IMG/VR virus record: IMGVR_UViG_2698536449_000008
Direction: 5' to 3' (one strand)
DNA from: a virus
Taxonomy: Duplodnaviria; Heunggongvirae; Uroviricota; Caudoviricetes
Length of the DNA: 12,488 bases
Shown: piece by piece, positions 3,001-6,000 of the stretch
Layout of the letters: each line of letters opens with the position of its first letter
Numbering within the stretch: the stretch's first letter is position 1
Position numbers: made by a program

Positions 3001-6000
3001 GTAACCGCTGGTTCAGCGTGATGGCGGGGCCGTCTGTGCGCGTGAATGAATGGTTCAGCGCGTATGCGATGGCGGGCGTGGCTTACAGCCGTGTGTCGAC
3101 CTTCTCCGGGGATTATCTCCGCGTAACTGACAACAAGGGGAAAACGCACGATGTGCTGACCGGAAGTGATGGCGGTCGCCACAGCAACACGTCTCTGGCG
3201 TGGGGGGCTGGCGTGCAGTTTAACCCGACCGAATCCGTGGCCATTGACCTTGCTTATGAAGGTTCCGGCAGTGGTGACTGGCGCACTGACGGTTTCATCG
3301 TGGGTGTCGGTTATAAGTTCTGATTAGCCAGGTAACACAGTGTTATGACTGCCCGCTGGTTCAGGCGGGCTTTTTGTGGGGTGAATATGGCAGTAAAGAT
3401 TTCAGGTGTACTGAAAGATGGGGCGGGTAAACCTGTCGTAAATTGTGCGATTGAACTGCGGGCCAGAAGAACCAGTCCGACCGTTGTGGCACACGTTGTT
3501 GCCACTTGCGTGACGGACAATAACGGTGCTTATGTGATTGAGGCTGAGCCGGGGTATTACGAGGTTGCGCTTCACTGTAACGGCTGGCAGCCAACCCGTG
3601 TCGGGGATATTGATGTGGCACCGACTGATGCACCGGGGACACTGAACGCGTTTCTGAATGCACCAAAGGATGGTGATTTACGTCCGGAGGTGATGAAGTG
3701 TCAGCGCCAGTGATATAAGACGGTAATTCGCCATTTGGATTGTCCGCTCCACCCAACATGTTGTTTCCTTAAGGTTCTCACACCAGAAAGGACATCAACA
3801 TGCTGAGCAGAGAGGACTTTTACATGATAAAGCAAATGCGCCAGCAGGGCGCGTACATCGTCGATATTGCGACTCAGATTGGTTGCTCTGAACGGACGGT
3901 CAGACGCTACCTCAAATACCCTGAACCGCCAGCCAGAAAGACCCGCCACAAAATGGTTAAGCTGAAACCGTTTATGGATTACATCGACATGCGCCTGGCA
4001 GAGAATGTCTGGAATAGCGAGGTTATCTTCGCGGAGATTAAGGCAATGGGTTATACGGGCGGACGTTCCATGCTGCGTTACTACATCCAGCCCAAACGTA
4101 AAATGCGTCCGTCAAAAAGAACAGTTCGCTTCGAAACTCAGCCTGGATACCAGCTCCAGCATGACTGGGGCGAAGTTGAGGTGGAGGTTGCCGGGCAACG
4201 GTGCAAAGTTAACTTTGCGGTTAATACGCTGGGGTTCTCCCGCAGCTTCCATGTCTTCGCCGCACCAAAACAGGATGCTGAGCATACCTACGAATCACTG
4301 GTTCGCGCCTTCCGCTACTTCGGTGGTTGTGTGAAAACGGTGCTGGTTGATAACCAGAAGGCTGCGGTGCTGAAGAATAACAACGGGAAAGTCGTGTTCA
4401 ACTCCGGATTCCTGTTGCTGGCTGACCACTATAACTTCCTGCCACGGGCATGCCGTCCACGCAGGGCCAGAACAAAAGGTAAGGTTGAGCGGATGGTGAA
4501 ATACCTCAAGGAGAACTTCTTCGTCCGGTACCGCAGGTTCGACAGCTTCACTCATGTCAATCAACAACTGGAGCAATGGATAGCCGATGTGGCTGACAAA
4601 CGGGAGCTTCGCCAGTTCAAAGAAACGCCGGAACAGCGCTTCGCGCTGGAGCAGGAACATCTGCAGCCGTTACCGGATACAGACTTCGATACCAGTTACT
4701 TCGATATCCGCCATGTGTCCTGGGACAGCTATATCGAGGTTGGTGGTAATCGTTACAGCGTTCCCGAAGCGCTGTGTGGTCAGCCGGTATCGATACGAAT
4801 ATCGCTGGATGACGAGTTGCGGATCTACAGTAATGAGAAACTGGTGGCCTCACATCGCCTCTGTTCAGCATCGTCTGGCTGGCAGACAGTGCCGGAGCAT
4901 CACGCCCCGCTCTGGCAGCAGGTCAGTCAGGTGGAACATCGACCACTGAGTGCCTATGAGGAGCTGTTGTGATGCATGAACTGGAAGTCCTGCTGAGTCG
5001 CCTGAAAATGGAGCATCTGAGTTATCACGTTGAAAGCCTGCTGGAACAGGCAGCTAAAAAAGAGCTGAACTACCGGGAGTTCCTGTGCATGGCGCTACAG
5101 CAGGAATGGAACGGCAGGCATCAGCGCGGTATGGAGTCCAGGCTGAAGCAGGCTCGTCTGCCGTGGGTCAAAACGCTGGAGCAGTTCGACTTTACCTTCC
5201 AGCCGGGCATCGACCGTAAGGTTGTCCGGGAACTGGCTGGTCTGGCGTTCGTGGAGCGCAGCGAAAACGTGATCCTGCTGGGCCCTCCTGGTGTCGGAAA
5301 AACTCATCTGGCCATAGCTCTTGGCGTGAAAGCGGTGGATGCGGGACATCGGGTACTGTTTATGCCACTGGACAGACTGATCGCGACACTGATGAAAGCG
5401 AAACAGGAAAACCGGCTGGAGCGTCAGCTACAGCAACTGAGTTATGCCCGGGTGTTGATCCTGGATGAAATAGGCTATCTGCCGATGAACAGAGAGGAAG
5501 CCAGTCTGTTCTTCCGGCTACTGAACCGTCGATATGAAAAAGCGAGCATCATACTGACGTCAAACAAAGGGTTCGCAGACTGGGGAGAAATGTTCGGAGA
5601 TCACGTACTGGCAACAGCGATCCTGGATCGGCTGCTACATCACTCAACCACGCTGAATATCAAAGGAGAGAGTTACCGGTTAAAAGAGAAACGTAAAGCT
5701 GGAGTGCTGACCAAAAACACAACGCCAATCAGTGATGATGAAATGGTGGAAAGCGGACAGCATCAGTAACGAAAGTATTTAGCGGGCATGAAAATGGCAA
5801 ATAACGGTCAAACATCGTGGCGTTGACANNNCGACGGAAACCACTTACCGCTTCACACAACTGGCGCTGGGGAACTACAGGCTGACAGTCCGGGCAGTAA
5901 ATGCGTGGGGGCAGCAGGGCGATCCGGCGTCGGTATCGTTCCGGATTGCCGCACCGGCAGCGCTGTCGCGGATTGAGCTGACGCCGGGCTATTTTCAGAT

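What the first reader, a model, noticed from the sequence alone, without database searches (positions are those of the whole stretch)
3387..5828. Complete IS21-type element inserted in the 5' part of a side-tail-fibre gene
The first stf retains only ~100 N-terminal codons before a full IS21-like element with intact overlapping istA/istB and recognisable terminal inverted repeats. This leaves the first prophage without a side tail fibre. The element looks intact and could still be mobile. The stf frame departs from its homologue about 8 bp before the IS end, so the exact target site and any target-site duplication cannot be defined, and the right flank is an N junction.
Basis: partly seen in the sequence, partly recalled or inferred. 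Interest (0 to 1): 0.55.

Follow-up and report, generated by a model that had tools for sequence, protein, structure and literature searches.

The report
Known IS21 insertion, misassembled scaffold
A well-known mobile element (IS21) really does cut a tail-fibre gene of a decayed Shigella sonnei prophage, but its "complete, possibly mobile" look and its right-hand neighbour are artefacts of a short-read scaffold, so the finding is ordinary.

Summary
The window is a Shigella sonnei draft scaffold made of pieces joined by N runs (606, 1207-1221, 5829-5831, 11870-12136).

What is real:
- IS21 occupies 3699-5828 (2130 bp, TG...CA ends).
- istA encodes 390 aa and istB 265 aa, overlapping by one base.
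- It sits directly after codon 104 of a lambda-type stf gene.
- This left junction is identical in all 19 finished or long S. sonnei assemblies examined.

What is not real:
- In every one of those assemblies the stf-resident IS21 is a wreck. A full IS600 interrupts it after window base 4126. In 17 of 19 it is also cut at base 4796 by a truncated IS600 that abuts stf at about nt 746.
- No IS21 right end, and so no target duplication, survives at this locus.
- At base 4326 the window carries G, as in intact IS21 copies elsewhere. All 11 resident copies checked carry A. The "intact" part was therefore probably borrowed from other copies during assembly.
- The right flank (5832 onward) is gpJ of another prophage, about 680 kb away in finished chromosomes.

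This is a known element at a known locus. Interest is low.

The parts
3387..3698 (+). 5' fragment of a lambda-type side-tail-fibre gene (stf', codons 1-104). The open frame runs on into the IS to a stop at 3711-3713.
   Evidence: PF08400 phage_tail_N positions 1-104 of 134, E=1e-36. It is 99.7% identical to the 5' end of the intact 470-aa stf of EIEC CFSAN029787, up to base 3698. The exact 108-aa and 122-aa products are named as Shigella sonnei proteins.
3695..3698 (+). GAAG: the expected 4-bp target-site duplication (left copy only). No right copy exists in the window or in finished genomes.
   Evidence: Nine of ten intact IS21 copies in chromosome CP104423.1 are flanked by 4-bp direct repeats. 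The empty site reads ...GATGAAG|CGCTTTGAGG.
3699..5828 (+). IS21 (2130 bp, 5'-TG...CA-3') as written in the window. Only 3699-4126 and 4124-4796 are present at this locus in finished genomes.
   Evidence: 100% full-length identity to annotated IS21 copies. The boundaries are confirmed by ten intact copies with flanking duplications.
3699..3751 (+). Left terminal inverted repeat region: outer repeat TGTCAGCGCCA (3699-3709) and inner repeat TGTCCGCTCCA (3741-3751).
   Evidence: Motif search and end alignment.
3800..4972 (+). istA, a DDE transposase of 390 aa.
   Evidence: NF033546 at 284 bits against a cutoff of 160. Pfam HTH_23, rve and Mu-transpos_C_2.
4124..4126 (+). GTT: the point where a complete 1264-bp IS600 sits in the stf-resident IS21 of finished S. 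sonnei genomes (3-bp duplication GTT).
   Evidence: Junction sequences. The left IS21|IS600 junction is present in 18 of the 19 assemblies and the right IS600|IS21 junction in 17. IS600 identity 99.9%.
4326..4326 (+). Diagnostic base: G in the window (codon GGT, Gly176 of IstA).
   Evidence: A (GAT, Asp) in all 11 stf-resident copies checked. G in all 10 intact copies elsewhere in CP104423.1.
4796..4796 (+). Last IS21 base retained at this locus in most finished genomes. There it is joined to a 5'-truncated, inverted IS600 (1177 bp) that abuts stf at about nt 746.
4972..5769 (+). istB, an AAA+ helper ATPase of 265 aa. It is absent from this locus in finished genomes.
   Evidence: NF038214 at 302 bits against a cutoff of 200. 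PF01695, E=2.5e-90. Probes for intact IS21 at 4796 and for the IS21 right end were absent from L042-L051. The window aligns to L002 and L010-L019 only up to base 4796.
5818..5828 (-). Right terminal repeat TGTCAACGCCA (read on the minus strand).
5829..5831 (.). NNN scaffold join, not a biological junction.
   Evidence: The flanks lie about 680 kb apart in finished chromosomes. In those genomes the sequence left of 5832 is contiguous gpJ.
5832..11869 (+). Unrelated second lambdoid prophage tail module ('gpJ 3' part, lom' of 160 aa, stf of 1029 aa, tfa). It is not part of the feature.
   Evidence: 100% identical over 6034 bp to finished S. sonnei chromosomes, where gpJ is full length at 1165 aa.

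Best explanation
An IS21 copy transposed into stf of a lambdoid prophage in the Shigella sonnei lineage. IS21 uses the IstA DDE transposase and the IstB AAA+ helper ATPase, has TG...CA ends and makes a 4-bp target duplication. It inserted between stf nt 312 and 313. This truncates Stf to 104 residues plus four IS-encoded ones.

The insertion is fixed in S. sonnei. The resident copy then decayed:
- A complete IS600 inserted into istA, after window base 4126, with a GTT duplication.
- A second event removed the IS21 3' half (window 4797-5828) and stf nt 313-745. It left a 5'-truncated IS600 joined to the stf 3' part.

The window comes from a short-read scaffold. The assembler or gap-filler walked from stf' into IS21 and carried on along the consensus of the ten or more intact IS21 copies elsewhere in the genome, up to the IS terminus. 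A scaffolder then joined that end through NNN to a gpJ fragment of another prophage.

Shown: the left junction, the identity of the element, the decayed state in finished genomes, and the non-adjacency of the flanks. Inferred: the order of the decay events, and the exact assembly step that produced the chimera.
For: - Element identity and boundaries.
- Empty site and exact target.
- Species: the exact truncated Stf' proteins carry S. sonnei names, and the 122-aa form is indexed in 543 blocks of the collection.
- Decay of the resident copy: 19 distinct finished or long assemblies share the left junction, and none has IS21 continuous across 4126 (L002, L010-L019, L042-L051). Probes for intact IS21 at 4796 and for the IS21 right end were also absent from L042-L051. 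In L002 and L010-L019 the window aligns only up to base 4796. The inserted element is IS600 at 99.9% identity.
- Diagnostic base 4326: G in the window and in 10 of 10 intact copies, but A in 11 of 11 resident copies.
- Repeat load: CP104423.1 holds the broken stf copy (L042) and at least 10 intact IS21 copies (L022-L031), so IS21 is a repeat that short reads cannot resolve.
- Patchwork window: segments 1-605, 608-1206, 1222 onward and 5832 onward each cover the same stretch of gpJ. Sanger-type S. sonnei drafts show the same chaining with short N runs (L003, L004, L006, L021). Other drafts end 31-53 bp inside the IS left end.
- Non-adjacency: segment 5832-11869 is 100% identical to finished chromosomes. 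There it is preceded by contiguous gpJ and lies about 680 kb from the stf'::IS21 locus (L010 vs L032, L013 vs L033, L014 vs L035).
- IS21 is one of 12 IS types already catalogued in S. sonnei 53G (PMC7373316).
Against: - The reads and the rest of the source assembly were not available, so the chimera is inferred and not seen.
- The case that bases 4127-5828 are borrowed rests on locus architecture in other strains plus a single diagnostic base.
- The finished genomes with the left junction have chromosomes of 4.78-4.89 Mb and may be mostly lineage 3. Lineage 1, 2 and 5 genomes (for example 53G) were not confirmed at this locus. A strain keeping the ancestral intact copy is therefore not strictly excluded.
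- There is no N or other visible seam at 4126/4127 in the window.
Confidence: 0.86

Rival explanations
1. The source isolate really carries an intact, potentially mobile IS21 in stf. This would be the ancestral state, before the IS600 insertion and the deletion. The true right junction (IS21 end + GAAG + stf 3' part) would then lie on another contig, and only the NNN join would be artefactual. This is essentially the first reader's model.
For: The window shows an uninterrupted 2130-bp element with both genes open. The ancestral copy would be expected to carry G at 4326 like the other copies. Not every S. sonnei lineage was confirmed at this locus.
Against: None of 19 finished or long assemblies has it. 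S. sonnei lineages are separated by about 600 pairwise SNVs (PMC12795559), and segment 5832-11869 is 100% identical to genomes that carry the decayed locus. The predicted right-junction pattern was not found in two large collections, although the left junction was not found there either, so that test is uninformative. Short-read drafts of the species break 31-53 bp into the IS.
Confidence: 0.09
2. The IS21 right end is truly joined to gpJ of the second prophage. This would be an IS21-mediated inversion or deletion, or recombination between IS copies, that fused two prophage tail regions. The three Ns would then be ambiguous bases, not a gap.
For: Only the written order in the window. Large IS-flanked inversions are reported in S. 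sonnei (PMC12795559).
Against: In finished genomes gpJ is intact (1165 aa) and continuous across the point matching base 5832, with no IS21 nearby. The loci are about 680 kb apart. The three preceding joins in the same window also restart in the same gpJ stretch, which marks a repeat tangle and not a transposition target. No E. coli genome joins the IS21 end to this gpJ position.
Confidence: 0.03
3. The whole feature is an assembly artefact and IS21 is not in stf at all.
For: The window is demonstrably a patchwork of joined pieces.
Against: The stf|IS21 left junction is present base for base in 19 finished or long assemblies, and the 122-aa read-through product is indexed in 543 blocks of the collection.
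Confidence: 0.01

Closest known systems
IS21 (prototype of the IS21 family; listed by ISSaga among the 12 IS types of S. sonnei 53G, PMC7373316)
   Same: - The size is 2130 bp; from memory, not checked here, the prototype is 2131 bp.
- istA encodes 390 aa and istB 265 aa, overlapping by one base.
- The ends are TG...CA, with an outer and an inner terminal repeat.
- Other copies in the same species have 4-bp target duplications.
- RefSeq names identical copies 'IS21-like element IS21 family'.
   Different: Nothing of substance for the sequence as written. At this locus the true copy is a remnant: IS600 is inserted in istA, and the 3' 1032 bp, including all of istB, is deleted. I could not align it directly to the R68.45 prototype, because record BN000925 is not in the collections.
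IS600 (IS3 family) nested insertions and IS-driven pseudogenisation in Shigella (Hawkey et al. 2020, PMC7373316)
   Same: The finished-genome locus is a typical IS-in-IS nest with an adjacent deletion. IS600 is 1264 bp with a 3-bp duplication, GTT.
   Different: IS600 is not visible in the window at all. The assembly skipped it.
Uninterrupted homologous prophage tail module of EIEC CFSAN029787 (NZ_CP011416.1: gpJ, lom, 470-aa stf, DUF4376 gene)
   Same: 98.6% identical over window 1222-3698. It supplies the empty target site.
   Different: It has no IS21 in stf. Downstream it carries a frameshifted ipaH gene, where S. sonnei has the DUF4376 gene followed by a four-gene ABC metal-transporter cluster (ZnuA, ABC_tran, 2x ABC-3 domains; I read it as sitABCD from memory).
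Repeat-induced misassembly in scaffolded short-read drafts
   Same: The window has variable short N runs (1, 15, 3 and 267). Allelic repeat fragments are chained in tandem, and a unique flank is fused to a repeat consensus. The same pattern occurs in other S. sonnei drafts (L003, L004, L006, L021).
   Different: Not applicable.

Membership tests
IS21 family insertion sequence | Two consecutive genes: istA (HTH + DDE/rve transposase) followed by istB (AAA+ ATPase) | tested here: met
   NF033546 at 284 bits (cutoff 160). NF038214 at 302 bits (cutoff 200). Pfam rve, Mu-transpos_C_2 and IstB_IS21. The genes overlap by one base in TGATG.
IS21 family insertion sequence | Ends 5'-TG...CA-3', with imperfect terminal inverted repeats that contain repeated IstA-binding motifs (L1/L2, R1/R2; PMC10122671) | tested here: met
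   TGTCAGCGCCA (3699-3709) and TGTCAACGCCA (5818-5828, minus strand) match at 10 of 11 positions. An inner left repeat lies at 3741-3751. No inner right repeat was found with up to 3 mismatches to the left core.
IS21 family insertion sequence | Short target-site duplication (4 bp for IS21; the prototype figure is from memory) | tested here: not met
   At this copy the left flank is GAAG and the right flank is NNN followed by unrelated gpJ. In finished genomes the right end is deleted. The feature holds for the element as such: nine of ten other copies have 4-bp duplications.
IS21 (the specific element, as opposed to another family member) | Near-identity to the reference IS21 | tested here: inconclusive
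   The window copy is 100% identical to copies that PGAP names 'IS21-like element IS21 family', whereas an 85.8% relative is named ISEc62. No direct alignment to the ISfinder or R68.45 sequence was possible.
Autonomous (mobile) IS copy at this locus | Both ends and both genes intact and contiguous at the stf site | tested here: not met
   None of 19 finished or long assemblies has this. The window's base at 4326 matches other copies and not the resident one.
Lambda-type side tail fibre (Stf) | N-terminal 'prophage tail fibre N-terminal' domain, encoded downstream of gpJ and lom | tested here: met
   PF08400 positions 1-104 of 134. The gene order gpJ, lom, stf is seen in the window and in L001 and L002.

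The most novel reading that the evidence does not exclude
The source isolate belongs to a rare S. sonnei branch that keeps the ancestral, intact and still mobile IS21 in stf. Alternatively, IS21 truly fused two prophage tail modules 680 kb apart. Either would give a dated snapshot of stepwise IS nesting or rearrangement in S. sonnei.
Probability: 0.08. Interest if true: 0.2.

Novelty: already known. Interest (0 to 1): 0.06.

Why it matters
It matters mainly as a caution. A tool-less read of a scaffolded short-read draft can turn a decayed, nested IS remnant into an apparently intact, mobile element. It can also make two prophages 680 kb apart look adjacent.

Biologically this is one more example of the well-documented IS-driven decay of cryptic prophages in Shigella sonnei. 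It opens no new question.

Tried and rejected
- I searched genome contigs and metagenome contigs for the predicted right junction (IS21 end + 0-9 nt + CGCTTTGAGGAAATGG) and found nothing. The left junction was also absent from both. These collections evidently do not hold S. sonnei at this locus, so the negative result is uninformative.
- I tried to fetch RP4/R68 (BN000925) for a direct comparison with the prototype IS21, but it is not in the collections.
- I tested whether the N runs are in-register masks of real bases. They are not. The sequence restarts about 140-600 bp back in gpJ after the first two N runs. The 267-N run stands for 187 bp in Ss046.
- I tested whether 5832 is a sharp repeat boundary between the two gpJ alleles. 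The two alleles are about 92.6% identical throughout, with no sharp boundary. The 'repeat boundary' argument therefore rests only on the four segments covering the same gpJ stretch.
- I considered whether an E. coli genome shares the insertion. No E. coli match extends past base 3698 into the IS.
- The S. boydii-labelled 108-aa cluster member (P0030) ends ...EVMKRFEE. It is a contig-end fragment of the uninterrupted gene, not the same insertion.

Full report
**1. What the window is**

The 12,488-base window contains four N runs: 606 (1 N), 1207-1221 (15), 5829-5831 (3) and 11870-12136 (267). BLAST against a finished chromosome shows the window is a chain of separate pieces.
- Segments 1-605, 608-1206 and 1222 onward each cover the same stretch of a lambda-type gpJ gene (L002 7388-7992, 7375-7973 and 7836 onward). 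They match it at 98.2%, 96.0% and 99.6% identity.
- Segment 5832 onward starts in that stretch too, at 88.8% identity, so it is a fourth allele.
- No finished locus has tandem gpJ pieces.
- The 267-N run stands for 187 bp in strain Ss046, so the Ns are scaffold gaps and not in-register masks.
- Other S. sonnei short-read drafts show the same chaining of gpJ or stf variants, separated by 1-20 Ns (L003, L004, L006, L021).

**2. The source organism**

The read-through products of the truncated stf exist as exact sequences named Shigella sonnei. These are the 108-aa form from ATG 3387 and the 122-aa form from ATG 3345; one name is FORC11_1838. The 122-aa form is indexed in 543 blocks of the collection. 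Segment 5832-11869 is 100% identical over 6034 bp to several finished chromosomes. Plasmids CP010830.1 and CP023646.1, whose accession numbers directly follow those of chromosomes CP010829.1 and CP023645.1, are labelled S. sonnei.

**3. The element**

Bases 3699-5828 (2130 bp) are an IS21-family element.
- istA (3800-4972, 390 aa) has HTH, rve and Mu-transposase C-terminal domains. NF033546 scores 284 bits against a cutoff of 160.
- istB (ATG 4972 to 5769, 265 aa) matches IstB_IS21. NF038214 scores 302 bits against a cutoff of 200.
- The two genes overlap by one base (TGATG).
- The ends are 5'-TGTCAGCGCCA and TGGCGTTGACA-3', matching at 10 of 11 positions as inverted repeats. An inner left repeat, TGTCCGCTCCA, lies at 3741-3751.
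- The sequence is 100% identical over its full length to copies that RefSeq names 'IS21-like element IS21 family transposase / helper ATPase IstB'.
- IS21 is one of 12 IS types catalogued in S. sonnei 53G (PMC7373316).
- Chromosome CP104423.1 holds at least ten intact copies, 99.86-100% identical to the window's. Nine of the ten are flanked by 4-bp direct repeats, which fixes the boundaries and the duplication length.

**4. The target**

The uninterrupted allele is in EIEC CFSAN029787, in the order gpJ, lom, 470-aa stf, DUF4376 gene.
- The window is identical to it up to base 3698. The IS begins at 3699...GAGGTGATGAAG|TGTCAGCG in the window against ...GAGGTGATGAAG|CGCTTTGAGG in the empty site.
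- The insertion is therefore after stf nt 312 (codon 104), and the expected duplication is GAAG.
- No E. coli genome in the collection has IS21 at this site.

**5. What is really at this locus in S. sonnei**

I examined 19 distinct finished or long assemblies (L002, L010-L019, L042-L051). All have the identical stf|IS21 left junction, and none has an intact IS21 there.
- A complete 1264-bp IS600 (99.9% identity) sits after window base 4126, with a GTT duplication. It splits istA into 109-aa and 238-aa fragments.
- In 17 of the 19, IS21 then stops at window base 4796. There it is joined to a 5'-truncated, inverted IS600 (1177 bp) whose intact end abuts stf at about nt 746.
- So 1032 bp of IS21 (all of istB and the right end) and stf nt 313-745 are gone.
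- The remaining two assemblies have gone further. CP045526.1 has a deletion between the IS600 copies, and CP019689.1 has a tandem duplication of the tail module.
- No right junction, and hence no target duplication, survives.
- The prophage itself is a remnant. IS copies lie between the Q-antiterminator region and a short tail module (genes for minor tail protein M, L, K, I, J, then lom and stf'). A DUF4376 gene and a four-gene ABC metal-transporter cluster (ZnuA, ABC_tran and two ABC-3 domain proteins) follow. I read that cluster as sitABCD from memory; the tools did not name it.

**6. Why the window shows a 'complete' IS21**

- The window is identical to the finished loci from 2766 to 4126.
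- Its nine mismatches at 1237-1465 and two at 2762 and 2765 lie in the gpJ and lom repeats.
- Beyond 4126 it follows generic IS21. At 4326 it has G (Gly176), as in 10 of 10 intact copies elsewhere. All 11 resident copies checked have A (Asp).
- The piece ends exactly at the IS terminus.
- Other drafts of the species break 31-53 bp into the IS.
- The most economical reading is repeat collapse or gap filling along the multi-copy IS21 consensus, followed by a scaffolder join.
- This step is inferred. I had neither the reads nor the rest of the assembly.

**7. The right flank**

Bases 5832-11869 belong to another lambdoid prophage: the gpJ 3' part, a 160-aa truncated lom, a 1029-aa stf and tfa.
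- In finished genomes gpJ there is full length (1165 aa) and continuous across the point matching 5832 (...GGCCCGGA|CGACGGAAACC).
- In the same chromosomes the two loci are about 680 kb apart. Examples: CBDDMI010000001.1 at 1.95 Mb against 1.27 Mb, JBEAAB010000011.1 at 1.00 against 0.32 Mb, and JBEAAF010000002.1 at 2.41 against 3.10 Mb.

**8. Mechanism and comparison with what is known**

The original event was ordinary IS21 transposition. An IstA tetramer synapses the two terminal repeats, and IstB selects and delivers the target (PMC10122671, PMC11208146). The 4-bp staggered insertion is supported here by the flanks of the other copies. Later IS600 nesting and deletion inactivated the copy.

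The sequence is a member of IS21 by every feature testable on it. As a resident of this locus it fails the 'intact, both ends, target duplication' tests.

Nothing here departs from the known IS-driven pseudogenisation of Shigella (PMC7373316). Novelty: already known. Interest: low.

**9. Residual uncertainty**

The finished genomes confirmed at this locus have chromosomes of 4.78-4.89 Mb and may be mostly lineage 3. A lineage that keeps the ancestral intact copy is not strictly excluded (about 9%). A real IS21-gpJ fusion is very unlikely (about 3%).

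Noticed in passing
window 1-1221 (and ORF 620-2656): Two fragments of about 600 bp (1-605 and 608-1206) are allelic variants of the same gpJ stretch that segment 1222 onward also covers. The 678-aa 'ORF' 620-2656 therefore reads through a 15-N scaffold join and is chimeric, not a real gene.
   Followed up: partly
window 7383-7865: The lom gene of the second prophage is truncated to 160 aa, against 199 aa for the first prophage's Lom. The exact 160-aa product is indexed in 1212 blocks of the collection and was present in all 10 places shown, which include finished chromosomes. 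It looks like a fixed pseudogene or short allele.
   Followed up: partly
window 11171-11233: A 63-bp in-frame segment of the tail-fibre assembly gene (tfa, 11047-11628) is present in the window and in several finished genomes. It is absent from L020 (CP000038.1), L034 (HE616528.1) and L041 (CP026802.1), so it is an indel polymorphism within the species.
   Followed up: partly
window 11870-12488: The 267-N gap corresponds to only 187 bp in L020 (CP000038.1). From memory, the window's last 31 bases (GGTGATGCTGCCAACTTACTGATTTAGTGTA) look like an IS1 terminal repeat. An IS1 transposase gene follows at the matching place in L020. The scaffold piece thus again ends at a repeat.
   Followed up: partly
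L047/L048 (CP019689.1) and L046 (CP045526.1): Two finished genomes have rearranged the stf'::IS21::IS600 locus further. One has a tandem duplication of the M-L-K-I-J-lom module starting at the IS600 copy. The other has a deletion that joins IS21 base 4123 almost directly to the stf 3' part.
   Followed up: partly
L001 8254-9896 vs L002 15300-18749: Downstream of the homologous prophage tail module, EIEC CFSAN029787 carries a frameshifted ipaH effector gene. S. sonnei instead carries a four-gene ABC metal-transporter cluster (ZnuA, ABC_tran, 2x ABC-3 domains) after the DUF4376 gene; I read it as sitABCD from memory. The cargo differs at the same prophage end.
   Followed up: no
L027 (CP104423.1 3,109,906-3,114,078): One of ten intact IS21 copies lacks a perfect 4-bp duplication: the left flank is CAGG and the right flank CAGC. 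This may reflect a point mutation or recombination between copies.
   Followed up: no
window 3349-3376: A GC-rich hairpin followed by a T run (GCCCGCTGGTTCAGGCGGGCTTTTT) lies between lom and stf. It looks like an intrinsic terminator directly upstream of the stf start. This was seen by reading the sequence only.
   Followed up: no
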